A DNA stretch of 44,225 bases from a virus (IMGVR_UViG_2744054854_000007); one strand, 5' to 3'. Shown: positions 1-31,378, numbered from the stretch's first letter. A program made the numbers and translations. Notes: a model not told the origin generated them from the sequence alone.

Positions 1-549
1 TCAGCTAGCTGGAAACTTTTTATACAGAGTTGAGAGCCCTACTCCATACGTTTTTGATACGCTTTGTCGTGATTCACCGGTTGCCATCCGCTCCCCCATT
101 TCCCGCCATTGCTCATCCGTGAACTTAGGCCTGCGACCACCAACTCGCCCTTTTGCCCTGGCTACGGCCAGCCCTGCTAAGGTACGTTCGCTATTAAGAT
201 CAGATTCATATTGTGCTGCGGAAAGGATGTTACGAAAGTTATAGCGGCCGCTGGCTGTTTTGAGATCCACGCCATCGGTAATACTGCGGAAGTTGATACC
301 CTTTTCCTGTAACTGCTGGAACATCAACAGCGCATGCAGAACGTTGCGGCCTATCCTGTCCAGCTTCCAGACCACCAGTTCATCCCCCGGCTGCATAGTG
401 GCGATGAGCCGTTTTAGAACCGGCCGATTCGATTTCCTCCCGCTGGCATGCTCTTCAAAAATTTTCTCACAACCCGCTGACTTGAGCGCCGTTAGTTGCA
501 ATTCAGTGTCCTGGTGGTTTGTTGATACTCGGGCATAACCGTAAATCAT
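1..549 (-). CDS. pin: Serine recombinase, DNA invertase of the Hin/Gin/Cin/Pin family
   Basis: Internal ATG at 549 of the 240-aa track ORF, preceded by GGAGA SD; product MIYGYARVST...VWKLDRIGRN...C-terminal HTH GVGLSTLYKKFP aligns by eye along its length with Hin; stop at 1-3. Confidence 0.9.
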   Translation of the reverse strand: MIYGYARVSTNHQDTELQLTALKSAGCEKIFEEHASGRKSNRPVLKRLIATMQPGDELVVWKLDRIGRNVLHALLMFQQLQEKGINFRSITDGVDLKTASGRYNFRNILSAAQYESDLNSERTLAGLAVARAKGRVGGRRPKFTDEQWREMGERMATGESRQSVSKTYGVGLSTLYKKFPAS

Positions 550-608
550 GGGATTTCTCCTGTTATGAAAACAGGAGAAACGGCGAAGCATCACCAGATT
601 TTTGATGG

Positions 609-634
609 TTATAAAAAAGGTTGGTTTGGGAGAA
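609..634. other. hix/gix-like recombination (crossover) site, left; core TT at 621-622
   Basis: TTATAAAAAAGG-TT-GGTTTGGGAGAA; outer half-site resembles hixL half TTATCAAAAACC (remembered consensus); inner half identical to inner half of right site. Confidence 0.7.
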
Positions 635-678
635 GGCTCTGCATTACCTGTTGGTGTGCCTGTTCCGTGGCCTTCAGC
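623..678. repeat. Inverted repeat (left copy) flanking the invertible tail-fibre segment
   Basis: About 56 bp reverse-complementary to 2729-2784 with one mismatch (T at 649 vs C); encodes the shared LGLGEGSALPVGVPVPWPSA block. Confidence 0.85.
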
Positions 679-1141
679 AACACCACCAACGGGATGGCTT
701 AAGTGCAACGGTGCACCGTTCACAGCATCCGAGTATCCAAAACTGGCACAGGCCTACCCGTCGCTTAAACTTCCAGATCTGCGCGGGGAGTTTATTCGTG
801 GATGGGATGACGGGCGAGGGATTGATGCAAGCCGCTCAATTATGAGTCAGCAGCAGGGTAGTTTGATGTCTATTTCTGTCTCAGCCAATACAAACGATGA
901 CAGAATTACTGTAATTCATGTCTATAACCCGCCGAGAGATTATGACGCTTTAATCAGCGGTGTAGGTATGGATTCAATGGCTGGTTATCATAAGGCATTT
1001 GATATCAGTAGTTTAGCATCCACTCTATCAACTCCAGACTTGACATCGCCTTTAGGTATGACTATCGCCGGACAGTTCGCTGTTGGCGGCGTGTCAAGAC
1101 CGCGCAACGTCGCATTTAACTACATCGTGAGGGCCGCATAA
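623..1141 (+). CDS. Alternative tail-fibre C-terminal segment (Sv'), not fused to the constant N-terminus in this orientation
   Basis: Track ORF 602-1141 begins with TTG/ATG inside the left recombination site; reading frame through the inverted repeat matches that of the active fibre; C-terminus RPRNVAFNYIVRAA conserved with active copy. Confidence 0.7.
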   Translation, partial: GLGEGSALPVGVPVPWPSATPPTGWLKCNGAPFTASEYPKLAQAYPSLKLPDLRGEFIRGWDDGRGIDASRSIMSQQQGSLMSISVSANTNDDRITVIHVYNPPRDYDALISGVGMDSMAGYHKAFDISSLASTLSTPDLTSPLGMTIAGQFAVGGVSRPRNVAFNYIVRAA

Positions 1142-1740
1142 TGGCGCAAGCTAAGCTAAATAGTAAATTTATCGCTACCGTGGCTGGGGATATCATCGTC
1201 TATAACTACAACGGTGAGACCCGTGAATATCAGTCCTCATCCGTTGAGTATCTTGCCGTAGGTGTTGGTATTCCAGCCTTATCCTGTATTGATGCGCCAG
1301 GAGAGCAAAAGGATGGTTTTGCCATTTGCCGTACATCAGATTTTAGCGCGTGGGAATATGTTCCCGATCATCGTGGTGAAACTATCTATAGCACCAAAAC
1401 TGGTGAAGCGTTTGTTGTCTCTTTGCCAGGTAACTACCCAAAAGAAACCACGACGCTGGCCCCTGCTACGCCATACGATACGTGGAACGGCAGCGAGTGG
1501 ATAACCGACACAAAAGAGAAACATGCTGCGGATGTGGTAAAGGCTGAACAGCAGAAAACCGCATTACTGGCGGAAGCGTCTGCAATCATCGCGCCATTGG
1601 CTGATGCTCAGGCTGGAGGCTACATCGACGATGCAGACGTGTCACGCCTGGCTGAGTGGCAACGGTACCGCTATAAACTGACTAAGGTTGATACCAGTAC
1701 CGCGCCAGACATTACTCTTCCACCGAAGCCGGAGGTTTAG
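1141..1740 (+). CDS. Tail-fibre assembly protein (alternative copy, Tfa')
   Basis: 199 aa, paralogous to the minus-strand copy (shared GETREY..SSSVEYLA.GVGIPALSCIDAPGE..GFAICRT..DTWNGSEW); start overlaps Sv' stop (TAATG). Confidence 0.8.
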   Translation: MAQAKLNSKFIATVAGDIIVYNYNGETREYQSSSVEYLAVGVGIPALSCIDAPGEQKDGFAICRTSDFSAWEYVPDHRGETIYSTKTGEAFVVSLPGNYPKETTTLAPATPYDTWNGSEWITDTKEKHAADVVKAEQQKTALLAEASAIIAPLADAQAGGYIDDADVSRLAEWQRYRYKLTKVDTSTAPDITLPPKPEV

Positions 1741-2323
1741 GCCATTTGATATTTGGTGCAGCGTCAGGGACGACAGCCTGCAATTCTTTTATGTAGGTCA
1801 GCCAGAGTATTAGGCTGGCCTTATCTTCATCACTGATAATCCCTAACTGTAGCTCCGTCTGCCACAGGCTGATCGTTGCATGTGCTTCAACTAAGAAAGC
1901 TGATTTTTGCTTTTCTGCAGCCTCTACGTCTGCGGTGTGTTGCTCGTCGATATTCGTAACCCACTCGCTGCCGTTCCACGTATCGTATGGCGTTAAAGGG
2001 GCTTGTGTCGTCGTATCTTTCGGATAATCACCCGGCTGGGAAATCGTGACTCGCTCACCTGTCTTCGTACTGTATACGGTTTCTCCGCGATGATCGGCGA
2101 GATACTCCCATGCGCTTAAGTCAAAGGTGCGACAAATGGCAAAGCCTTCTTTAACTTCTCCAGGAGCATCAATACATGATAAGGCTGGAATTCCTACACC
2201 TGCCGCCAAATACTCAACGGATGAAGAAAGATATTCACGGGTCTCACCATCGTAGTTAAACACCGTTATATCACCGGCCACTGTAGCAATATGCTCATTG
2301 TTTAATTTTGCCTTCGCCATCAT
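1712..2323 (-). CDS. Tail-fibre assembly protein (copy in expressed orientation)
   Basis: 203 aa; ATGA start/stop overlap with tail-fibre gene; converges on and overlaps the 3' end of the plus-strand paralog by 29 bp. Confidence 0.85.
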   Translation of the reverse strand: MMAKAKLNNEHIATVAGDITVFNYDGETREYLSSSVEYLAAGVGIPALSCIDAPGEVKEGFAICRTFDLSAWEYLADHRGETVYSTKTGERVTISQPGDYPKDTTTQAPLTPYDTWNGSEWVTNIDEQHTADVEAAEKQKSAFLVEAHATISLWQTELQLGIISDEDKASLILWLTYIKELQAVVPDAAPNIKWPKPPASVEE

Positions 2324-3069
2324 GCGGCCCTCACAATATAATTAAAGGCGATGTTACGTGGACGGTTTTCATTAGCTGTTGGCACGACACGAGAGGCGTC
2401 GAATCCAAGGTCATCGGTTTTGTCTATAGTAGTTGTGTTATTCGGCATTCTCGCTGATCGTGTTCCTGCATCGTAAAAAGCCCCTCTGATTGCATCAAAA
2501 GACATACCGATCCCGCCATCTGCGAATCCCTCAATATTTCTTATTGCATCCCCCTGTGAAGATAATAATTGTCGCCCGGCATCCACTCTACGTCCGTCAT
2601 CCCAGCCACGAATAAATTCACCGCGTAAATCAGGCAATTTATTTGTCGGGTAAGCCTTTGCCAGTTCCGGGAATTCTTCAGCAGAAAAAGCCGCACCATT
2701 GCATTTCAGCCAGCCTGTTGGCGGAGTGGCTGAAGGCCACGGAACAGGCACACCAACGGGTAATGCAGAGCCTTCTCCCAAACCAAGGTTTGTGAGAGCC
2801 GTAGAAATCGCCGCTGCACCATCTGATTTGATATCGGCAAATGGGTTTGCACGGCTCAGTGTGAGTTTTTGAATGGCTTTTAAAACCTGAGTCATATCGT
2901 TAATGTCGAGCGCCAATCCTGCTGACTCTACGATATGCGCTAACTCTTCCTGCATGGCATTAAACGCTGCTGCCCGCAGCCTCGTTGCGGCAATACCACC
3001 AGCAACACTTCCATCAGTATATTTGCCATCCTGCGTTGCAGTGGCTTCGACTTGCCCGATTCGGAGCAT
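2320..3069 (-). CDS. Tail fibre protein (constant N-terminus + variable C-terminus in current orientation)
   Basis: 249 aa; GAGGA SD before ATG 3069; N-terminal ~95 aa lie outside the invertible segment, C-terminus inside; short fibre like the e14 stf genes (remembered). Confidence 0.85.
   Translation of the reverse strand: MLRIGQVEATATQDGKYTDGSVAGGIAATRLRAAAFNAMQEELAHIVESAGLALDINDMTQVLKAIQKLTLSRANPFADIKSDGAAAISTALTNLGLGEGSALPVGVPVPWPSATPPTGWLKCNGAAFSAEEFPELAKAYPTNKLPDLRGEFIRGWDDGRRVDAGRQLLSSQGDAIRNIEGFADGGIGMSFDAIRGAFYDAGTRSARMPNNTTTIDKTDDLGFDASRVVPTANENRPRNIAFNYIVRAA
2729..2784. repeat. Inverted repeat (right copy) flanking the invertible segment
   Basis: Reverse complement of 623-678 with one mismatch. 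Confidence 0.85.
2773..2798. other. hix/gix-like recombination (crossover) site, right; core AA at 2785-2786
   Basis: TTCTCCCAAACC-AA-GGTTTGTGAGAG; about 19 of 26 positions match remembered hixL TTCTTGAAAACCAAGGTTTTTGATAA. Confidence 0.7.
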
Positions 3070-3120
3070 AGTTAATCCTCACTTAGTGTTAAGCGATAAA
3101 ATCAGAGGGGGAAATATCAG

Positions 3121-3714
3121 TTATGAATAATTGAAAATGATGTTCAGATGGGATGGGGCAATTTTGTTGATTGAACACTCCAGTTGTTTATTGCCCCACG
3201 ATGCGAGCGGATCTCCGCAGTAGGACGCGCCAGCAAGCGAATACTTGATCGTTGTTTGTGGCGCATTTATCCGCCAGGTAAATGGCCACTCGTCACCGTT
3301 AAGCGCATCACCGCATACTGACATGCCACTCATAGCGGGCCGGAACTGTGTGATAGTGATGGTATAACCAAGAGCTGCAGCCACCCGGATGTAATAATCG
3401 CGGTTCAGGCCGCCGGTGCTGATTAACTTTGCCACCACGGCGCGCTGGCGATCGCTGACGCCACCGGATTCACCAATCGCACAATCATCTGGTAACCCCA
3501 GAGAGCTTTCCCATTCTGACAACATTACCGTCGCTGTAGGGGGAAAAGCACCAGTAATCAGGCTTTGCGCATCGTTGTCAGAACGCTGAAACGCGCTGCC
3601 CAGTGCCCGTAATACCGCAGCCTGTACCGTTCTTTGCGACCGGGGCCACGCCCTGCCCGTCGGTAGCAGCGCACCAAGCGCACCGGCATAATCATTTTTT
3701 GAAAAGAGGCTCAT
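3121..3714 (-). CDS. Baseplate/tail protein, Mu gp48 (YmfQ, DUF2313)-like
   Basis: 197 aa; position immediately upstream of the tail fibre; family assigned from memory. Confidence 0.7.
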   Translation of the reverse strand: MSLFSKNDYAGALGALLPTGRAWPRSQRTVQAAVLRALGSAFQRSDNDAQSLITGAFPPTATVMLSEWESSLGLPDDCAIGESGGVSDRQRAVVAKLISTGGLNRDYYIRVAAALGYTITITQFRPAMSGMSVCGDALNGDEWPFTWRINAPQTTIKYSLAGASYCGDPLASWGNKQLECSINKIAPSHLNIIFNYS

Positions 3715-4853
3715 ACAAAATTCACCCCGCCAAGCACCGGAATTTCGCCAACAGCAAAGGTGATATTGGCCGTCGGAGAGTTAAGAATATAGCCCGTCGT
3801 GCCGCTAACACCGCCGATACTCCCGTTAATATCAGAGAGGTAAACTTTCCCGGAACCATCAGGGTTAGCTTCATCAAAAAACAGCGCCGTCAGCGCGTCT
3901 TTTATCCCCTGAACTGTGGTGCTGTCGGCATTTTTGATCCCAGAGATTTCAATATTGATGACTTTCTTGATCGGGGAACATACGAAAACAATGGCAGTGT
4001 CTGTCTGCTGCGGATAGATGTGGTCGGCGACAGCGAGCTGGTCTCCGGTGGCTTTAACAGCCCCCCAGTCCTCAAGTTGGGATATTCCGTCGGTACCGAC
4101 CGGAAACCCACCATTGTCATTCCGATCACACATGATATACACGCCAACGGTCCCGGCCCCGTTCAGACGCCGCTTTACCCACGCGCGGGTGACGCCCGAA
4201 ACCTCAAGCGCCCATTTTTTATAATCGGCGTCGCTTCCACCCTGAGGCGGATTCTGCCATGCCAGCAAGCCACGACTGCGAAAATCCTCTTCCGTTTCAA
4301 TATCGGCTCCGCCGGTCGCAGCGGACAGTAACGTTACCTGTGGATCCACGCCAGCAATATTCGCGTCCAGGGTCATTATGGTCCCGGCATCAGCGTTACC
4401 GCGCGCGCCTCCACCCGTTACATCACTGGTAATATCCGGCAGTATGGCCGTCACCGCGACGATACCAAATCCATCTGCCTGAATTTTAAGATCTGCATCC
4501 GTCCGGTACTGGTATCCGTCCCCGCGGTTAATGATCGAGCCAACAGGGATAATACAGTCAACACTGCCACTAGCCTGTACCGCAGGCGACTTCGCCGCTG
4601 CAGCTGGTTTTCTGAATACCTGCTTAAGGGCCATCCACCCGGCGAGATACTCATCGGTAGAGGTAAACGGGTTTGTCTGCAGGGCAATATAGTCAAGGTA
4701 GGCGTAATGCAGATGCCCCATCCCCGCATCCATGTCAGCCAGTACCTTCAGGTTCGCGAAGCGCAGGAGCGCACCAACATCCTCAAGCTCCGCCTGCATA
4801 AATTTCCGGTTTCCGTCGCGGAGTTCGCTCAGCGTCGGTCGTTTAAACGGCAT
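3711..4853 (-). CDS. Baseplate J-like protein (Mu gp47-like)
   Basis: Start taken at internal ATG 4853 (MPFKRPTLSEL), 1 nt after upstream stop; 380 aa; synteny in Mu-like baseplate cluster. Confidence 0.75.
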   Translation of the reverse strand: MPFKRPTLSELRDGNRKFMQAELEDVGALLRFANLKVLADMDAGMGHLHYAYLDYIALQTNPFTSTDEYLAGWMALKQVFRKPAAAAKSPAVQASGSVDCIIPVGSIINRGDGYQYRTDADLKIQADGFGIVAVTAILPDITSDVTGGGARGNADAGTIMTLDANIAGVDPQVTLLSAATGGADIETEEDFRSRGLLAWQNPPQGGSDADYKKWALEVSGVTRAWVKRRLNGAGTVGVYIMCDRNDNGGFPVGTDGISQLEDWGAVKATGDQLAVADHIYPQQTDTAIVFVCSPIKKVINIEISGIKNADSTTVQGIKDALTALFFDEANPDGSGKVYLSDINGSIGGVSGTTGYILNSPTANITFAVGEIPVLGGVNFV

Positions 4854-4854
4854 A

Positions 4855-5292
4855 TTAACGTTGCTCCCATATCCAGTAAAACCTGAATTCCTGCCAGTCC
4901 TTCCCCGGTGCCTGATAGCGGATAATGAGATTGAGCCGGTCAGGCAGGACGATCCTTGCAACAGGAATAACCTCGCTGACAACGCCATCAACCTTTAACC
5001 AGTTGAGCGCTTCACTCGAGTATTCCTCCGCTTTTTTTGCTACATCCGGGGTCAGTTTTTTCCGCCGTAGCAGCCACAGCCGGGATCCCAGTTGGGATTC
5101 CTCCCCGGAATCCCCCCACCAGCCGCGGCGATCGCTATCCTCATAATCATCGTCAGCGCGCGCCAGCCTGTCGGTAAACAGGCTGTCCAGTATTGCAGTC
5201 TGTAAATCGTTCCCCGTGGTGAGTTCACCCAGCCCTTTCTGCCAGTCAGCAAACATCTCATCCACATTCCAGAATGAAGCGATGTCACTCAT
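4855..5292 (-). CDS. Baseplate protein, Mu gp46-like
   Basis: 145 aa; synteny between gp45-like and J-like genes. Confidence 0.65.
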   Translation of the reverse strand: MSDIASFWNVDEMFADWQKGLGELTTGNDLQTAILDSLFTDRLARADDDYEDSDRRGWWGDSGEESQLGSRLWLLRRKKLTPDVAKKAEEYSSEALNWLKVDGVVSEVIPVARIVLPDRLNLIIRYQAPGKDWQEFRFYWIWEQR

Positions 5293-5873
5293 GTCACCTG
5301 ATCCTCTGTTTTTTGGCTGCGGATATTGTCATTGCCACTCTGGGCATTTTTAACCACATGATCATGGTCATTATGTGCATCCCGCAGCTCTTTCAGTGTT
5401 CGGGTATTGGTTTCACAGTTATCAACAATGTCACCCGTGCACCTCAGGATCGGGGTATTTGCAAGGATCCCCTGGCTGGCATTGATGGTCACGTTAGTGG
5501 CGTTATTGACCTCAACATTCTGGCCCTTTGCATCCAGGAAGATCCCCTTCTCCGTCAGGAGAATATTAAGGCCCCACTGGTTATACATGACCGTTTCGCC
5601 CGCTTTCAGGCCTGTATGACGGAACCCCTGATGGTTGGACGCAATTACCACCGCGCTGGAACGATCACCGCCAATAAAAGCCAGAACCACGTCAGTCCCT
5701 GACGGCAGGCCGGATGAAAAGCCAAATTCTGCCATCCGCGGAGCGCTGGCCACCTCCAGCGGAGTCTGGTACTGGATAGACTGCACCACCCCACCATCTT
5801 TCATAGCCGTGATCCGGCCAATCCCCAGCATGCCGGCGATCCTGGTCGCTGCATGTTTAAATAGTTGCTTCAT
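5289..5873 (-). CDS. Baseplate assembly/spike protein (Mu gp45-like, gpV family)
   Basis: 194 aa; ATGA overlap with neighbours; synteny. Confidence 0.65.
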   Translation of the reverse strand: MKQLFKHAATRIAGMLGIGRITAMKDGGVVQSIQYQTPLEVASAPRMAEFGFSSGLPSGTDVVLAFIGGDRSSAVVIASNHQGFRHTGLKAGETVMYNQWGLNILLTEKGIFLDAKGQNVEVNNATNVTINASQGILANTPILRCTGDIVDNCETNTRTLKELRDAHNDHDHVVKNAQSGNDNIRSQKTEDQVT

Positions 5874-6955
5874 GTATTGAATCCCGCCAGGTTCTGGTAG
5901 AAGGCATATGGCTGAACGGAGAATGCTTCAGGCGGCATCAGCGTCATGCGTGCATGGGTGCCGTAGTCATCGCGCATATAGGTGACTTCTGCCAGTAGCA
6001 ATTCAGTCTTCGGCAACCGTAAGGTGGGAAGATCAACGGGGATCAATGTGTTTGGTTCCCACAGTTTCCCGTCTTTATCCCGCCAGGAATCGATGGTTAC
6101 CGAGAGCTGTTTTGAACGTCCGTACCGCCGGTTCATTTCCCAGTCGATCGCACTTTGTGCCTGTTGAGTAGCCATCAGGGTACTTTCCACAATCGATATA
6201 TGTTTTCGGTACCGCATGCGGGCGGCCTCCGGATCTCTCGCCGTTGCCAGAGTCACAGCGTCATAGGCCGTATCAGGCGAATACCCTGCAATTGGAGAAA
6301 CGCTCATTGATACACCGACATAATCTGAAAACCTGTCAGCCATCGATTTGCGGTAGTATGCCTGCTCGACATTTACCCCTTCGGCTATCCCACTTGCCGC
6401 ACGACGTGTTCCCACCCGGGTCAGTAACAGGTTTCCATCGGGCTGATCGTAGTAAAGCAGAGCAGACCATCTGGCCACCCGATCGATGACTTCTTGCGGA
6501 GACTCACCCCAGTTCAGAGTGAACTGGGGTACCTTCACAAGTTCATCAACATCCGTGGTTACGGTGATGCCGTAGTAGGATGCCAGGCGAGAAGCAATTT
6601 CAAGCGCATTACTGGCATTGATGACGTTGTTAGGCCACTCGGCTGAGCAATCCACCAGGTCCTGACATTTGCTCCTGCCCGTGGCGCGGACCTCATGGCG
6701 GGAGCGCGATAGTGCGGGTTCCCAGTCATCAACATATCCCGTCAGTGTCAGATCATCTCCGATACGAACTTCACAAGACATTCCCTCTTCAACGAGTTGA
6801 CGATCTTCGTTGCCAGGGAAGTAATCCATTAGCCCAAGATCGAAATCAGAGGGAAAACGCTCAATACCCCGCGTTACCCGGACAGAATCCCACCCCTCGA
6901 TGATTTTGCCGTCGACCGTCAAAGAAACAACATCCAGATCGCTGTCTGCATTCAT
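5870..6955 (-). CDS. Baseplate hub protein (Mu gp44/P-like)
   Basis: 361 aa; ATGA overlap with upstream gene; synteny. Confidence 0.65.
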   Translation of the reverse strand: MNADSDLDVVSLTVDGKIIEGWDSVRVTRGIERFPSDFDLGLMDYFPGNEDRQLVEEGMSCEVRIGDDLTLTGYVDDWEPALSRSRHEVRATGRSKCQDLVDCSAEWPNNVINASNALEIASRLASYYGITVTTDVDELVKVPQFTLNWGESPQEVIDRVARWSALLYYDQPDGNLLLTRVGTRRAASGIAEGVNVEQAYYRKSMADRFSDYVGVSMSVSPIAGYSPDTAYDAVTLATARDPEAARMRYRKHISIVESTLMATQQAQSAIDWEMNRRYGRSKQLSVTIDSWRDKDGKLWEPNTLIPVDLPTLRLPKTELLLAEVTYMRDDYGTHARMTLMPPEAFSVQPYAFYQNLAGFNT

Positions 6956-8355
6956 TGCCTCAGTACCTTCATGGTTGTCGGCATAAACGCCGGATGCGGT
7001 ACGCGCGCTTCCTGTACCAGTTCATCTGCACGGGTGGCATCCTGGTATAATCGGTTTGCCAGCGTCAGCGCCGGAAGCGGCTGAGCGGTAGTAACCTGCA
7101 GAAGCTCGCTCAGACCAGAAGCACGCTCACTCATCGTAGAAAGGAATGCCGATCTGACGGCGAGAAGCGCGTTATACATATCATCGTCTGCGCGGTCTCC
7201 AGCCAGAACCAGCGCCGTATCAAGTTGCACAGAAACTCGTTGAGTTAACTCTTCTGCCTCGTCTGTACTGGCTGGTCTGGAGTCCGCAGCGGCACTGGTC
7301 ATGGCACCAGTACATAGCACAACAATCAGCGTGTTCATGGTCGCCGAAATCGCTTTGCTGCTGTCGGACTGCTGGTACTCCGTGCTGATTGAATTAGCCA
7401 GTTTTTCCAGCGCTGTGATTCGGTCATTAACGCTGCCGGCGCTGTTAAGAATTGCGTTTACCACGTCGGCGACGCCCTGGACAAACTCATCAGGTGTGTT
7501 GGAGCTGCTAAGCTGGCTCGACCTGTCGGTAACATTTTTCCGGTCCATTACCGACTGGGCTGTTACCTTGTCAGCCAGTGCTCTCTCATCATCCACATCA
7601 GCAACTGACGATTTGCCAGCAACAGCAGAGGAACTACCGCCCACAGAGCCTTTACTGTAACGTCCGTACCGGGTATTCCCGAACGTGGAGTTCAGGACAT
7701 TGCTGAGATTCGTGACCTGACTGATGGTGCTGTCAACCATGTTAGTCCAGAACGTGACCGTGCCTCTGATGGTGTTTATAGCCTGTGTGACACCGCGGAT
7801 TTCACTCTTAACTCTGGCAATCGTGCTCAGCACAGCAGTGCTGACCAGTTTCAGATAGTTGGTTTTCACCGTGGCGCCTGCAACGGTACTGCCCGTGACA
7901 GCAAACACTTTAAGCCCTGATTCAATTGCCATCAGGGTAAATTCAAATACTCGCCCGTTCTCCATCGAACCGGAAATACGCAAACCATTCTCAGGGATGG
8001 AAACCGTTAATTCGCCCAGTGTCGGATGGACAAGCGTACCGCTACCTTTTTGTTCACAGGCTTCAATCAGTGACTGGCGCTGCGTGATAGCATCGCCGCC
8101 GCCGTAAACCTGGCTGTTCTGGATCAAGAAACCGCGAATAACAAATCGCCGTGTTGCCCGCCCGATATCCTCTATCCAGGCTGTATCACGGTAGGGATAT
8201 TCATGTACCGCCTGGCGTCGGCCGTGGCTCCCTTCCTCAGCAACAATTGCAAATGGCACACCTCTGAATGAGCTGGGCCGTAACTGCCCCTGCCAGTCAT
8301 CGCTGGTATCTCCCCCCAAAAGAGAAGTTATTGCGTCCTGGATAATTGACGGCAT
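6952..8355 (-). CDS. DNA circularisation protein N-like (Mu gp43-like)
   Basis: ATG at 8355 with GGAGG SD (track ORF starts one codon earlier at GTG); N-terminal ...SSFRGVPFAIV... resembles Mu N N-terminus (memory). Confidence 0.7.
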   Translation of the reverse strand: MPSIIQDAITSLLGGDTSDDWQGQLRPSSFRGVPFAIVAEEGSHGRRQAVHEYPYRDTAWIEDIGRATRRFVIRGFLIQNSQVYGGGDAITQRQSLIEACEQKGSGTLVHPTLGELTVSIPENGLRISGSMENGRVFEFTLMAIESGLKVFAVTGSTVAGATVKTNYLKLVSTAVLSTIARVKSEIRGVTQAINTIRGTVTFWTNMVDSTISQVTNLSNVLNSTFGNTRYGRYSKGSVGGSSSAVAGKSSVADVDDERALADKVTAQSVMDRKNVTDRSSQLSSSNTPDEFVQGVADVVNAILNSAGSVNDRITALEKLANSISTEYQQSDSSKAISATMNTLIVVLCTGAMTSAAADSRPASTDEAEELTQRVSVQLDTALVLAGDRADDDMYNALLAVRSAFLSTMSERASGLSELLQVTTAQPLPALTLANRLYQDATRADELVQEARVPHPAFMPTTMKVLRQ

Positions 8356-8367
8356 CACGCCTCCGGA

Positions 8368-8396
8368 AATAAAAAAACCGCCATGTCGGCGGTTTA
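8368..8396 (-). terminator. Rho-independent terminator-like hairpin (minus strand)
   Basis: 7-bp GC-rich stem AACCGCC/GGCGGTT with 5-nt loop followed on the minus strand by TTTTTTTATTT; sits just upstream of the N-like gene SD. Confidence 0.55.
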
Positions 8397-27463: not shown

Positions 27464-27490
27464 GACAAAAAACCCGCTCGATGGCGGGTT
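27464..27490 (-). terminator. Rho-independent terminator (minus strand), tR'-like, just downstream of Q-like gene
   Basis: AACCCGC/GCGGGTT 7-bp stem followed on the minus strand by T6. Confidence 0.6.
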
Positions 27491-27555
27491 CTTAATTCTT
27501 TGTCGACCTACGAAGCTATGGCGACGATATCAGATTTACATGAAATATATGCGTT

Positions 27556-31286: not shown

Positions 31287-31378
31287 GGAGGGTTGGCCGA
31301 GTGGTTGATGGCACCTCACTGATAATGAGGCGTACGGGCTATAAACCCGTACCGCGGGTTCGAACCCCGCACCCTATT
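31287..31378 (+). tRNA. tRNA-like gene, class-II architecture, Ile-type anticodon loop CUGAUAA (GAU); possibly degenerate
   Basis: Hand-folded: D-arm GCC-GAGTGGTTGAT-GGC; anticodon arm CCTCA-CTGATAA-TGAGG; 23-nt variable hairpin; T-arm GCGGG-TTCGAAC-CCCGC; acceptor has one G:A mismatch and no encoded CCA; followed by a terminator. Confidence 0.4.

What the first reader, a model, noticed from the sequence alone, without database searches (positions are those of the whole stretch)
609..2798. Complete Pin/Hin-type invertible tail-fibre switch with identifiable crossover sites and two alternative fibre C-termini plus cognate assembly proteins
Seen in sequence: 26-bp sites at 609-634 and 2773-2798 in inverted orientation with identical inner halves and identical 2-bp cores; about 56-bp inverted repeats with one mismatch; inside are mirror-image pairs (variable fibre C-terminus plus Tfa) converging and overlapping at 1712-1740; the invertase gene lies just outside. 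The constant fibre N-terminus (2787-3069) is currently fused to the minus-strand variable part; inversion would fuse it in frame to the plus-strand alternative (623-1141). Both variable parts keep a conserved C-terminal ...RPRN(I/V)AFNYIVRAA. Established: Hin-hix, Gin-gix, Pin-pix host-range switches; the sites are close to the remembered hixL consensus. Both halves of the switch look intact.
Basis: partly seen in the sequence, partly recalled or inferred. Interest (0 to 1): 0.6.

Follow-up and report, generated by a model that had tools for sequence, protein, structure and literature searches.

The report
Working invertible phage tail-fibre switch
This is a real, intact flip-flop DNA switch at the end of an E. 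coli prophage that swaps the receptor-binding tip of the tail fibre; both orientations of this element are found in public genomes, and it is an ordinary member of the well-known Mu G / e14 P family apart from an unusual invertase lineage.

Summary
Two 26-bp crossover sites (609-634, 2773-2798) lie in inverted orientation, with identical inner halves and identical 2-bp cores. They bound a 2,166-bp cassette holding two convergent tip-plus-Tfa pairs, and a 182-aa serine invertase gene lies just outside. Simulated inversion gives an in-frame 267-aa fibre.

That predicted protein exists residue for residue in four public E. coli assemblies. Two of their contigs are colinear with the simulated inverted window over 7 kb (99.4% identity, no gaps), so the element does flip, core to core. 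The 16-nt crossover sequence is identical to the experimentally verified e14 P-segment repeat.

The window is a whole e14-like hybrid prophage: lambdoid early region and head, Mu-like tail. The kind is well known, so novelty is low.

First, the invertase belongs to an uncharacterised "PinL-type" lineage, 52-55% identical to Gin/Cin/PinE. It lacks the residues through which Hin contacts Fis and the enhancer, and it carries a conserved leader hairpin over its ribosome-binding site. Second, the cassette is a portable module: it is 99.8% identical in a P2-like prophage, while identical backbones carry other cassettes.

Whether this invertase needs Fis is unresolved.

The parts
1..549 (-). Serine DNA invertase gene (182 aa), 'PinL-type' lineage. 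It has the catalytic Ser9 in the YARVST motif, the GGRRPK minor-groove arm and the STLYKKFPA recognition helix.
   Evidence: Pfam Resolvase 3.6e-39 plus HTH_7 1.5e-09. Gin PDB 3UJ3 E = 1.4e-56 over residues 1-181 with no gaps. 52-55% identical to Gin/Cin/PinE and 100% to the mEp237 invertase.
553..595 (-). Invertase leader with two adjacent hairpins: 595-582 (5 bp, terminator-like) and 581-553 (12 bp). The second sequesters the Shine-Dalgarno AGGAGA (561-556), 7 nt upstream of the ATG (549-547).
   Evidence: MFE z-score -4.9 to -5.0 with 0 of 200 shuffles as stable. Conserved in 9 sequences from 7 genera with one compensatory pair. Absent from the pinE, gin and P2-like leaders. No Rfam match.
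609..634 (.). Left (invertase-proximal) 26-bp crossover site TTATAAAAAAGG|TT|GGTTTGGGAGAA, with core at 621-622.
   Evidence: The outer half is fixed and the inner half travels with the cassette across 18 related loci. The breakpoint of the natural flip falls at 621.
621..2786 (.). Invertible cassette, 2,166 bp from core to core, bounded by 58-bp inverted repeats (621-678 and 2729-2786, one mismatch).
   Evidence: It lies on the opposite strand at 99.6-99.9% identity in L033 and L034, between colinear flanks. It is 99.8% identical in a P2-like prophage.
623..1141 (+). Currently silent alternative fibre tip (Sv'), a Collar domain plus C-terminal knob. An in-frame ATG at 605, outside the cassette, makes a 178-aa ORF.
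   Evidence: Pfam Collar 2.8e-15. In-frame fusion on simulated inversion. The same tip is the expressed end of a 522-aa P2-type fibre in L001.
1141..1740 (+). Tail-fibre assembly protein (Tfa') cognate to the silent tip, 199 aa.
   Evidence: Pfam Caudo_TAP 6.5e-28, profile positions 1-131 of 131.
1712..2323 (-). Tail-fibre assembly protein (Tfa) cognate to the expressed tip, 203 aa. It converges on Tfa' and overlaps it by 29 nt.
   Evidence: Pfam Caudo_TAP 2.8e-29. ORF list.
2320..2786 (-). Currently expressed variable tip (Sv), which is the C-terminal 155 aa of the 249-aa fibre.
   Evidence: The exact 249-aa protein is in NCBI as WP_187703282.1.
2773..2798 (.). Right 26-bp crossover site TTCTCCCAAACC|AA|GGTTTGTGAGAG inside the fibre gene, with core at 2785-2786. 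It encodes the ...NLGLGEG... junction.
   Evidence: It matches the e14 site in stfP at 24 of 26 positions.
2787..3069 (-). Constant N-terminal part of the fibre (Sc, 94 aa), presumed to be the baseplate-attachment domain.
   Evidence: 48% identical to the N-terminus of e14 StfP up to the same GLGEG motif. Found joined to dozens of different tips in public proteins.
3121..3714 (-). YmfQ / Mu gp48-like baseplate wedge protein. It is the first gene of the Mu-like baseplate block that continues to 6955, and it is included here as context.
   Evidence: Pfam Phage_Mu_Gp48 1.2e-32. Downstream come Baseplate_J, GP46, Mu_Gp45 and GpP-like.

Best explanation
This is a functional two-state, e14-P-segment / Mu-G-segment type host-range switch at the tail-fibre end of an intact hybrid prophage (lambdoid early region and head, Mu-like contractile tail).

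The proposed mechanism runs as follows:
1. The late tail operon reads on the minus strand through the constant 94-aa fibre N-terminus (2787-3069) into whichever tip lies behind the right-hand site. It then reads into that tip's own assembly protein.
2. A serine invertase binds the two 26-bp sites as dimers. It cuts both at the 2-bp AA/TT cores (621-622 and 2785-2786), rotates and religates.
3. This turns the 2,166-bp cassette around. The fibre then ends in the other tip (249-aa form to 267-aa form), followed by the other Tfa.
4. A lysogen population therefore releases particles with two receptor specificities.

The enzyme is most likely the adjacent 182-aa invertase. Co-resident Pin-family invertases could also act, because the site equals the e14 site. 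Expression of the invertase appears to be throttled by a conserved leader hairpin that buries its ribosome-binding site.

What is shown: the anatomy, the in-frame fusion, the existence of both orientations of this element with breakpoints at the cores, and the flip of a sister cassette whose repeats are too short for homologous recombination.

What is inferred: which enzyme acts, the switching rate, the host-range consequence, the role of the hairpin, and whether Fis is needed.
For: - Anatomy and in-frame fusion.
- Chance: the inner half plus core occurs twice, against 0 expected.
- The crossover 16-mer is identical to the verified e14 repeat (PMC12529663). e14 has the same gene order.
- The predicted 267-aa post-inversion fibre exists exactly in NCBI, under four accessions on four contigs.
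- L033 and L034 are colinear with the simulated inverted window 1-7000 at 99.36% and 99.41% with no gaps. Block 621-2786 is reversed relative to the window. They sit at the same chromosomal site, next to yciI.
- The sister loci L021 and L023 have 100% identical flanks and an invertase protein identical to the window's. Their cassette is 99.1% identical but flipped, with breakpoints at the core and only about 7 bp of inverted repeat.
- The invertase is intact: catalytic residues are invariant, and the protein is identical to the window's in 16 of 18 related loci, with one substitution in each of the other two.
- Seven divergent lineage members from other genera all sit beside the same kind of cassette, with the proximal site at a fixed distance from the ATG.
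Against: - Nothing shows that the adjacent invertase, rather than a co-resident Pin enzyme, catalysed the observed flips. PinE, PinQ and PinR all invert e14 in K-12 (PMC12529663).
- Among complete E. coli genomes, the three with this exact cassette at this locus all have the window's orientation. The flipped state was found only in draft assemblies.
- No read-level evidence of mixed orientation within one culture was available.
- The invertase lacks the residues through which Hin contacts Fis and the enhancer. No convincing pair of Fis sites was found in its 5' region. Its activation mechanism is therefore not established.
- The host-range effect of the two tips is untested.
Confidence: 0.88

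Rival explanations
1. The segment flips, but the adjacent invertase is not the responsible enzyme. On this view inversion is carried out in trans by other Pin-family invertases in the same cell (PinE, PinQ, PinR or P2-like prophage invertases), and the local gene is inactive or has another role.
For: The crossover sequence is identical to the e14 site, which several Pin enzymes invert. The identical cassette is served by a PinE-like invertase in a P2-like prophage. The local invertase lacks the classical Fis-contact residues.
Against: The invertase ORF is intact with all catalytic and DNA-recognition residues. It is strongly conserved: identical to the window's protein in 16 of 18 related loci. 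Across seven genera it is always found next to such a cassette, with its own conserved outer half-site at a fixed distance. That pattern is not expected of a dead gene.
Confidence: 0.08
2. The two orientations arise from RecA-dependent homologous recombination between the 58-bp inverted repeats, not from site-specific recombination.
For: The repeats in this particular cassette are unusually long, at 58 bp with one mismatch.
Against: A sister cassette with only about 7 bp of inverted repeat, in the same backbone and with the same invertase, has flipped exactly at the 2-bp core. Most related cassettes have only about 19 bp of repeat. The sites have the half-site, core, half-site anatomy of hix/gix/pix sites.
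Confidence: 0.02
3. The switch is frozen. The two orientations are old inherited alleles and the element no longer inverts at a meaningful rate.
For: All three complete genomes with this cassette share one orientation. The leader hairpin may keep invertase expression very low.
Against: The flipped and unflipped copies differ by only about 0.6% over 7 kb, and by 3-9 mismatches within the cassette. The flip is therefore recent relative to sequence divergence. A second cassette has flipped between 100%-identical flanks.
Confidence: 0.05
4. In the lysogen the switch serves the host rather than the phage, or as well as the phage. A fibre-tip protein made from the prophage would block receptors and exclude other phages, as reported for e14 StfE2.
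For: PMC12529663 reports that inversion of the e14 P segment creates StfE2, which blocks T2 adsorption. Here an in-frame ATG at 605, outside the cassette, gives a 'headless tip' ORF in either orientation.
Against: Unlike e14, this prophage looks complete, with a full head, tail, lysis, replication and integrase set, so the ordinary virion function is available. No promoter or ribosome-binding site was evident for the 605 ORF. Nothing here tests exclusion.
Confidence: 0.1

Closest known systems
e14 P segment and PinE of E. coli K-12 (ymfQ-stfP-tfaP-tfaE-stfE-pinE)
   Same: - Same gene order, with the invertase co-directional with the tail genes.
- Same short-fibre design. The constant N-terminal domain is 48% identical, and the crossover falls in the same NLGLGEG motif.
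- The inner half-sites and core are identical. The e14 site in stfP matches the window's right site at 24 of 26 positions.
- The verified e14 crossover 16-mer equals window 621-636.
   Different: - e14 is a defective remnant, whereas this prophage looks complete.
- The tips and Tfa genes are different sequences.
- The invertase is only 55% identical to PinE and belongs to another lineage, which lacks the Fis-contact residues that PinE keeps.
- The invertase-proximal outer half-site differs: CCTTTTTTATAA here against CGTTTATGAAAA in e14.
- The pinE leader has no hairpin over the ribosome-binding site.
Phage Mu G segment / Gin and phage P1 C segment / Cin
   Same: - Same logic: a constant fibre N-terminus outside the segment, two alternative C-termini each with its own assembly gene inside, and a serine invertase next door.
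- The invertase is homologous over its full length (Gin PDB 3UJ3, E = 1.4e-56).
- The sites have the same 12-2-12 anatomy.
   Different: - The Mu and P1 fibres are long, and the Mu G segment is about 3 kb.
- The Mu gix cores are TC/GA rather than AA/TT.
- In P1 the site overlaps the 3' end of cin.
- Gin and Cin are 52% identical to this enzyme and keep Q150/R153/L154 and K/R50, which this enzyme lacks.
Salmonella Hin / hix flagellar phase switch
   Same: Serine invertase chemistry and 26-bp sites with an AA core. The hix sequences are recalled from memory and were not fetched. It is the reference system for the Fis/enhancer invertasome (PMC3798978).
   Different: Hin flips a promoter, not a coding cassette. 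The residues Hin uses to contact Fis (Q151, R154, L155), the basic helix-B residue at 51, and the dimer-locking Phe105 and Met109 are E, E, R, A, N and I in this enzyme.
pinL of phage phi80 and the invertases of mEp237, HK225 and mEpX1 (lambdoid siphophages)
   Same: Essentially the same invertase: 100% aa identity to mEp237 and about 96% nt identity to phi80 pinL. The same leader palindrome is annotated only as 'IR3' in phi80. The same left site is present.
   Different: In those phages only a remnant follows the site. In phi80 it is a 190-nt 'internal fragment, phage tail collar domain protein (pseudogene)'. They therefore carry the enzyme without a working cassette, whereas this window has the complete switch.
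P2-like prophage fibre switch in E. coli PigCaeca_2 (locus L001)
   Same: The cassette itself is 99.8% identical over 621-2795, with the same inner half-sites and cores.
   Different: It is attached to a 522-aa P2 gpH-type constant part and served by a PinE-like invertase that is 54% identical to this one. In that record the cassette sits in the opposite state, with the window's silent tip expressed.

Membership tests
Small serine recombinases, DNA-invertase (Hin/Gin/Cin/Pin) family | A protein of about 180-190 aa with an N-terminal resolvase catalytic domain and a C-terminal HTH_7 DNA-binding domain | tested here: met
   Pfam PF00239 at 3.6e-39 (residues 2-135) and PF02796 at 1.5e-09 (residues 138-181).
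Small serine recombinases, DNA-invertase (Hin/Gin/Cin/Pin) family | Catalytic serine in the Y-x-R-V-S-T motif, together with the conserved Arg/Asp/Arg set and the essential Phe88 and Phe106 equivalents (Hin numbering) | tested here: met
   Y5, R7, S9, D64, R65, R68, F87, F105, E121 and R122 are invariant in alignments A1 and A2. The roles of Phe88 and Phe106 are taken from PMC4513852.
Small serine recombinases, DNA-invertase (Hin/Gin/Cin/Pin) family | Closer in sequence to known invertases than to resolvases | tested here: met
   Gin (3UJ3) scores E = 1.4e-56 and 194 bits over residues 1-181 without gaps. Gamma-delta resolvase scores E = 4e-25. Identity to Gin, Cin and PinE is 52-55%.
Small serine recombinases, DNA-invertase (Hin/Gin/Cin/Pin) family | Two 26-bp sites (12-bp half, 2-bp core, 12-bp half) in inverted orientation with identical cores, one of them next to the invertase gene | tested here: met
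   The inner halves are identical to the e14 pix sites, and the core is AA/TT.
Small serine recombinases, DNA-invertase (Hin/Gin/Cin/Pin) family | The segment is actually found in both orientations, with breakpoints at the cores | tested here: met
   L033 and L034 compared with the window. L021 compared with L023. The exact 267-aa fusion protein is in NCBI.
Small serine recombinases, DNA-invertase (Hin/Gin/Cin/Pin) family | Fis/enhancer contact residues: Hin Gln151, Arg154 and Leu155 in DBD helix 1, and basic residues at Hin 47, 48 and 51 in helix B. PMC3798978 describes these as 'uniquely conserved among DNA invertases'. | tested here: not met
   The window has E150, E153 and R154, where Gin, Cin, PinE and the P2-like enzyme all have Q, R and L. 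It has A50, where they have K or R. K46 and R47 are kept. Across 14 lineage members helix 1 is hypervariable and position 50 is A, S, T, G or V.
Small serine recombinases, DNA-invertase (Hin/Gin/Cin/Pin) family | A recombinational enhancer, with two Fis sites about 47-48 bp apart, lying about 100 bp from a site within the 5' part of the invertase gene | tested here: inconclusive
   Geometry is taken from PMC3798978. In gin and cin a candidate pair lies at +30 and +78. At nt 71-85 the four classical genes keep G...C at positions -7 and +7, although codon 29 encodes Q, L, L or R. The window has C...A, and G at -7 is absent in all 8 lineage genes. The proximal 15-mer is largely kept but is forced by the catalytic motif. 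The positions of the Fis sites in gin and cin could not be checked against a primary source. The synonymous-site test lacked power.
Small serine recombinases, DNA-invertase (Hin/Gin/Cin/Pin) family | Inversion depends on Fis and on negative supercoiling | not testable with these tools
   This needs in vivo assays in fis mutants or in vitro assays.
Phage tail-fibre host-range inversion switches (Mu G, P1 C, e14 P, p15B Min type) | The crossover site lies inside the fibre gene, so that a constant N-terminus is joined in frame to either of two alternative C-termini | tested here: met
   Simulated inversion gives 249-aa and 267-aa fibres that share residues 1-125. Both proteins exist in public data.
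Phage tail-fibre host-range inversion switches (Mu G, P1 C, e14 P, p15B Min type) | Each alternative tip is followed by its own tail-fibre assembly gene inside the segment | tested here: met
   There are two full-length Caudo_TAP proteins, one behind each tip.
Phage tail-fibre host-range inversion switches (Mu G, P1 C, e14 P, p15B Min type) | The switch lies at the distal end of a tail or baseplate gene block of a phage or prophage | tested here: met
   Mu gp44-48-like baseplate genes lie immediately upstream. The full prophage gene set is in the ECCWS199 annotation.
Phage tail-fibre host-range inversion switches (Mu G, P1 C, e14 P, p15B Min type) | The two orientations give particles with different host range | not testable with these tools
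   This needs plating of phage from orientation-locked lysogens.

The most novel reading that the evidence does not exclude
The invertase belongs to a distinct, uncharacterised lineage of enterobacterial phage DNA invertases ('PinL-type', at least 79% identical across E. coli, Citrobacter, Klebsiella, Salmonella, Serratia, Morganella and Yokenella). The most novel reading is that this lineage does not use the classical Fis/enhancer invertasome and is controlled in another way.

The lineage shows these features:
- It has lost the Arg-Leu dyad and the Gln through which Hin contacts Fis.
- It has lost the third basic helix-B residue that touches the enhancer.
- It carries Asn at the position where Hin F105N gives Fis-independent inversion.

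In place of enhancer control, a conserved leader hairpin buries the ribosome-binding site and would keep a potentially genotoxic, less tightly gated enzyme at very low levels.
Probability: 0.3. Interest if true: 0.55.

Novelty: new member of a known kind. Interest (0 to 1): 0.3.

Why it matters
The switch itself is textbook biology, and near-identical copies already sit in RefSeq under generic names, so the main result is a clean confirmation. It has three modest points of value.

- It gives a complete, apparently inducible relative of the defective e14 element. In such a phage the host-range consequences of P-type inversion could be measured directly.
- It shows how freely the cassette moves. 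The same 2.2-kb module occurs in a Mu-like-tailed prophage and in a P2-like prophage, served by invertases only 54% identical. Identical backbones carry at least ten different cassettes between fixed outer half-sites.
- The invertase lineage is widespread yet unstudied, and it lacks the published hallmarks of Fis/enhancer control. A naturally enhancer-independent invertase with a defined 26-bp site would interest people who study serine recombinase regulation and people who build recombinase tools.

Tried and rejected
- **Flipped form in complete genomes.** I searched for the simulated flipped locus in complete E. coli genomes and found none. Only three complete genomes carry this cassette at this locus, so the result says little.
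- **Mis-specified query.** I queried the wrong end of locus L010, the tape-measure region. The search was wasted for its purpose, but it showed that about 33 complete genomes carry the backbone.
- **L010 cassette as a commoner test case.** It is not present intact in any complete genome, because the cassettes are too mosaic for single-query orientation counts.
- **Strain AW1.7, assembled twice.** This is not a flip. The fibre is truncated at the site and the cassette is missing.
- **Exact junction patterns in viral contigs.** Neither the current nor the flipped junction is present, so the test is uninformative.
- **Look-up of the flipped fibre's contigs.** A search with the constant part returned only contig-end fragments. 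A search with the 267-aa protein itself solved the problem.
- **Crude Fis-motif scan.** It does not discriminate, so I did not rely on it.
- **Synonymous-site conservation as an enhancer test.** The first sequence set was 99-100% identical. With divergent genes, both lineages are constrained only around codons 1-10, so the test has no power.
- **Primary source for the Fis-site coordinates in the hin enhancer.** The paper is not held.
- **Rfam search of the leader.** No match.
- **Homologous recombination as the mechanism.** Rejected because of the 7-bp-repeat flip.


Full report
**1. The observation**

- Window 609-634 reads TTATAAAAAAGG|TT|GGTTTGGGAGAA. Window 2773-2798 reads TTCTCCCAAACC|AA|GGTTTGTGAGAG. 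Reverse-complementing one site shows identical inner 12-mers and identical 2-bp cores.
- The inverted repeat extends inward from the cores for 58 bp (621-678 against 2729-2786), with one mismatch at 649.
- The 14-nt inner half plus core occurs exactly twice in the 44,225-bp window, and none is expected by chance.
- A scan for hix-like 26-mers with an AA/TT core in 1-3300 finds only these two sites. This is therefore a simple two-state switch and not a multi-site shufflon.
- The ORFs are as stated:
  - an invertase at 1-549 (-), with Resolvase and HTH_7 domains
  - a silent tip at 623-1141 (+), with a Collar domain
  - Tfa' at 1141-1740 (+)
  - Tfa at 1712-2323 (-), overlapping Tfa' by 29 nt
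  - a 249-aa fibre at 2320-3069 (-)
- Inverting 621-2786 in silico yields an in-frame 267-aa fibre that shares residues 1-125 with the present one.

**2. The setting**

- Immediately beyond the fibre lie Mu gp48/YmfQ, Baseplate_J, GP46, gp45 and gp44/GpP homologues.
- The window runs from the invertase stop codon to the integrase start codon.
- ECCWS199 carries the prophage between yciI and kch. It is 99% identical to the window over the switch and baseplate block (1-8394) and 97.5% over the tail and head region. The early region is mosaic or unmatched. Its RefSeq annotation shows:
  - a lambdoid early region (Q-like antiterminator, O/P replication genes, RusA, RecE/RecT, integrase)
  - a lambda-like head module
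  - a Mu-like contractile tail
- From memory, this matches the organisation described for phage SfV and for e14. That resemblance was not tested here.
- e14 in K-12 has the same gene order at its end: ymfQ, stfP, tfaP, tfaE, stfE, pinE.
- The constant part of e14's fibre is 48% identical to the window's, up to the same NLGLGEG junction.

**3. Does it flip?**

- Among complete E. coli genomes, three carry this exact arrangement. All three are in the window's orientation, and none is flipped.
- The predicted post-inversion 267-aa fibre is present, residue for residue, in the protein collection. It has four NCBI accessions on four contigs.
- Two of those contigs were retrieved as L033 and L034:
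  - They align colinearly with the simulated inverted window over positions 1-7000, at 99.36% and 99.41% identity without gaps.
  - Against the window as it stands, exactly 621-2786 lies on the opposite strand at 99.6-99.9% identity.
  - They sit at the same chromosomal site, with yciI next to the invertase.
- So both states of this exact element exist, and the breakpoints are the two cores.

Independent support comes from 18 related loci that share the invertase and the constant fibre part.

- The outer half-sites are fixed in all of them, while the inner half-sites travel with whatever cassette is present.
- Two of them, L021 and L023, have 100% identical flanks and an invertase protein identical to the window's. 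Their cassette is 99.1% identical but inverted.
- In that pair the inverted repeat is only about 7 bp, and an unusual inner half-site (GGATTAACCAAC) has moved from one end to the other. Homologous recombination cannot explain this, whereas site-specific exchange at the core can.

Finally, the crossover 16-mer TTGGTTTGGGAGAAGG is identical to the repeat at which the e14 P segment was shown experimentally to invert (PMC12529663).

**4. Mechanism**

The best-supported account is the classical one, and section 3 above shows the inversion step.

1. Late transcription on the minus strand reads through the constant 94-aa N-terminus into the tip behind the right-hand site, and then into that tip's Tfa.
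2. The other tip and Tfa face the wrong way and have no upstream fibre start.
3. Serine-recombinase exchange at the AA/TT cores turns the cassette around and swaps both the tip and its chaperone.

The evidence that both tips are functional is indirect but reasonable.

- Both tip ORFs and both Tfa ORFs are full length.
- Both fusion proteins occur in nature.
- The currently silent tip is the expressed C-terminus of a 522-aa P2 gpH-type fibre in strain PigCaeca_2.

The effect on host range is inferred from the Mu, P1 and e14 precedents. It was not tested.

**5. The invertase**

By sequence it is clearly a DNA invertase.

- It aligns over its full length with Gin without gaps (PDB 3UJ3, E = 1.4e-56), far better than with the resolvases.
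- The catalytic residues, the GGRRPK arm and the STLYKKFPA recognition helix are all conserved.

It is nevertheless only 52-55% identical to Gin, Cin, PinE and the P2-like prophage invertase.

- It is 100% identical in protein to the invertase of phage mEp237, and about 96% identical in DNA to phi80 pinL. In phi80 only a remnant of a cassette follows the site.
- The lineage is well populated across Enterobacterales, with members at least 79% identical.
- Seven divergent members from Salmonella, Serratia, Morganella, Yokenella, Citrobacter and Klebsiella all sit next to a convergent tip/Tfa cassette that follows baseplate genes.
- In six of the seven, a recognisable proximal site lies with its centre about 73 nt from the ATG, with an AA core and an outer half close to CCTTTTTTATAA. 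The second Citrobacter locus (L040) has only a degenerate version there.

**6. The Fis-enhancer check**

McLean et al. (PMC3798978) make several relevant statements.

- The hin enhancer is a 65-bp element about 100 bp from a hix site.
- It has two Fis sites 47 bp apart.
- Hin Arg154 and Leu155 contact Fis, and those contacts are required for inversion by wild-type Hin.
- Residues 47, 48 and 51 are always basic in the DNA invertases they aligned.

In my alignments the picture is as follows.

- Gin, Cin, PinE and the P2-like enzyme all have Q, R and L, and K or R at the position equivalent to Hin 51.
- The window's enzyme has E150, E153, R154 and A50.
- Across 14 members of its lineage, DBD helix 1 is hypervariable, although the catalytic domain is almost invariant. 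Position 50 is never basic.

In helix E the lineage reads GRYNFRNILSAAQYES, where the classical enzymes read GRFFFHVMGALAEMER.

- The Hin Phe105 and Met109 equivalents, which lock the inactive dimer, are Asn and Ile here.
- Chang and Johnson (PMC4513852) report that Hin F105N gives faster, Fis-independent inversion and strong SOS induction.
- The essential Phe106 and Phe88 equivalents are kept.

At the DNA level the evidence is weaker.

- gin and cin have a candidate pair of Fis-like 15-mers centred at +30 and +78, the right distance from the site.
- At nt 71-85 the four classical genes keep G at -7 and C at +7, even though codon 29 encodes Q, L, L or R. This looks like a DNA-level constraint.
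- The window has C and A at those positions, and G at -7 is missing in all eight lineage genes examined.
- I could not verify the Fis-site coordinates against a primary source.
- My motif scan is crude, and a synonymous-site test had no power.

My conclusion is that the protein-level hallmarks of Fis/enhancer control are not met, and the DNA-level test is inconclusive. This does not weaken the claim that the switch works like a Pin/Gin switch. It does weaken the claim that the enzyme is regulated like Hin.

**7. A conserved leader**

Between the left site and the ATG, the invertase mRNA can form two adjacent hairpins.

- The first is at window 595-582. The second is at 581-553 and buries the Shine-Dalgarno AGGAGA.
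- The fold is far more stable than shuffled controls, with z about -5 and 0 of 200 shuffles as stable.
- It is conserved in nine sequences from seven genera, while the spacer beside it varies. The only variable pair in the long stem changes U-A to C-G, which is compensatory.
- The pinE, gin and P2-like leaders show nothing comparable, with z-scores of 0.03, -0.23 and -1.21.
- Rfam has no match. phi80 annotates the stem only as 'IR3'.
- It may limit translation of the invertase. A perfect DNA palindrome acting as an operator is an alternative that I cannot exclude.

**8. Modularity**

- The cassette (621-2795) is 99.8% identical in a P2-like prophage. There it is joined to a long gpH-type constant part and served by a PinE-like invertase with the e14-type outer half-site.
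- Conversely, contigs L008 and L010 are 100% identical to the window from 2772 to 5000 but carry a different cassette.
- Eighteen backbone-sharing loci show cassettes of about a dozen different lengths between the same outer half-sites.
- The constant part is found joined to dozens of different tips in public proteins.
- Exchange of whole cassettes at the conserved sites is the simplest reading. This agrees with older work on Min/Cin/Gin tail-fibre mosaics, which I recall but did not check here.

**9. Verdict**

- The thing is a new member of a thoroughly known kind. Near-identical copies are already in RefSeq under generic product names.
- Interest is therefore low to moderate.
- The most novel reading not excluded is that this invertase lineage works without the classical Fis/enhancer control and is instead held in check by its leader hairpin. 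I put this at about 0.3.

Noticed in passing
window 553-595 (minus strand); also L035-L041 upstream of the invertase ATG: The leader of the invertase gene has two conserved adjacent hairpins, and the longer one covers the Shine-Dalgarno. The z-score is about -5. It is conserved in 7 genera with one compensatory pair, is absent from the pinE, gin and P2-like leaders, and has no Rfam match. It could be an RNA translational brake or a DNA palindrome operator.
   Followed up: partly
L001 (E. coli PigCaeca_2, NZ_CP038857.1) 5001-7175, compared with window 621-2795: The same 2.2-kb cassette, 99.8% identical, sits in a P2-like prophage. There it is fused to a 522-aa gpH-type fibre and served by a PinE-like invertase only 54% identical to the window's. 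Homology starts and ends at the crossover sites.
   Followed up: partly
L008, L010 and L013-L026, compared with window 1-620 and 2772-5000: Backbones up to 100% identical to the window carry many different cassettes (1,552 to 2,166 bp) between invariant outer half-sites. The inner half-sites always travel with the cassette.
   Followed up: partly
L021 (E. coli 1368KP) and L023 (E. coli 2022CK-00450): These sister loci have 100% identical flanks and the same cassette in opposite orientations. One inner half-site is the non-canonical GGATTAACCAAC, so the inverted repeat is only about 7 bp, yet the flip is exact at the core.
   Followed up: yes
window 605-1141 (+): An in-frame ATG at 605, 16 nt outside the cassette, makes a 178-aa 'headless tip' ORF that PGAP annotates as a phage tail protein. 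After inversion the equivalent ORF would be 160 aa. This parallels e14 stfE/StfE2, which was reported to block T2 adsorption (PMC12529663). No ribosome-binding site or promoter is evident.
   Followed up: no
L003 (phage phi80, JX871397.1) 3031-3817; also mEp237 and HK225: Lambdoid siphophages carry this same invertase, its leader palindrome ('IR3') and the left site. Only a 190-nt fragment of a tail-collar domain follows, so this is a stranded invertase without a cassette.
   Followed up: partly
L031 and L032 (E. coli AW1.7, two assemblies): The fibre gene is truncated right at the crossover site. The cassette and invertase are replaced by unrelated DNA (IntS integrase, GDSL lipase). This may be the scar of an aberrant recombination at the site.
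   Followed up: no
window 31287-31378 (+): A tRNA-Ile (anticodon GAT) of 92 nt, unusually long for a tRNA-Ile, lies in the prophage early region. ARAGORN and Rfam both call it.
   Followed up: no
window 27468-27540 (-): A full-length match to the Rfam isrJ Hfq-binding sRNA family, at 58.7 bits against a gathering score of 37.
   Followed up: no
proteins P0138-P0216: A search with the constant part of the fibre returned almost only 'partial' proteins at contig ends. Draft assemblies often break inside this gene, as expected if sequenced cultures hold both orientations. It may also be an artefact of how candidates are chosen.
   Followed up: no
L033 8236-8784: In one of the flipped-state contigs, a second 182-aa resolvase-like gene lies beyond yciI, outside the prophage.
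   Followed up: no
L020 (Z22-6), L027 (L6-21) and L040 (Citrobacter): Some relatives have decayed switches. L020 has a truncated fibre and a shortened cassette gene set. L027 lacks the standard left-site sequence. L040 has a degenerate invertase-proximal site.
   Followed up: no
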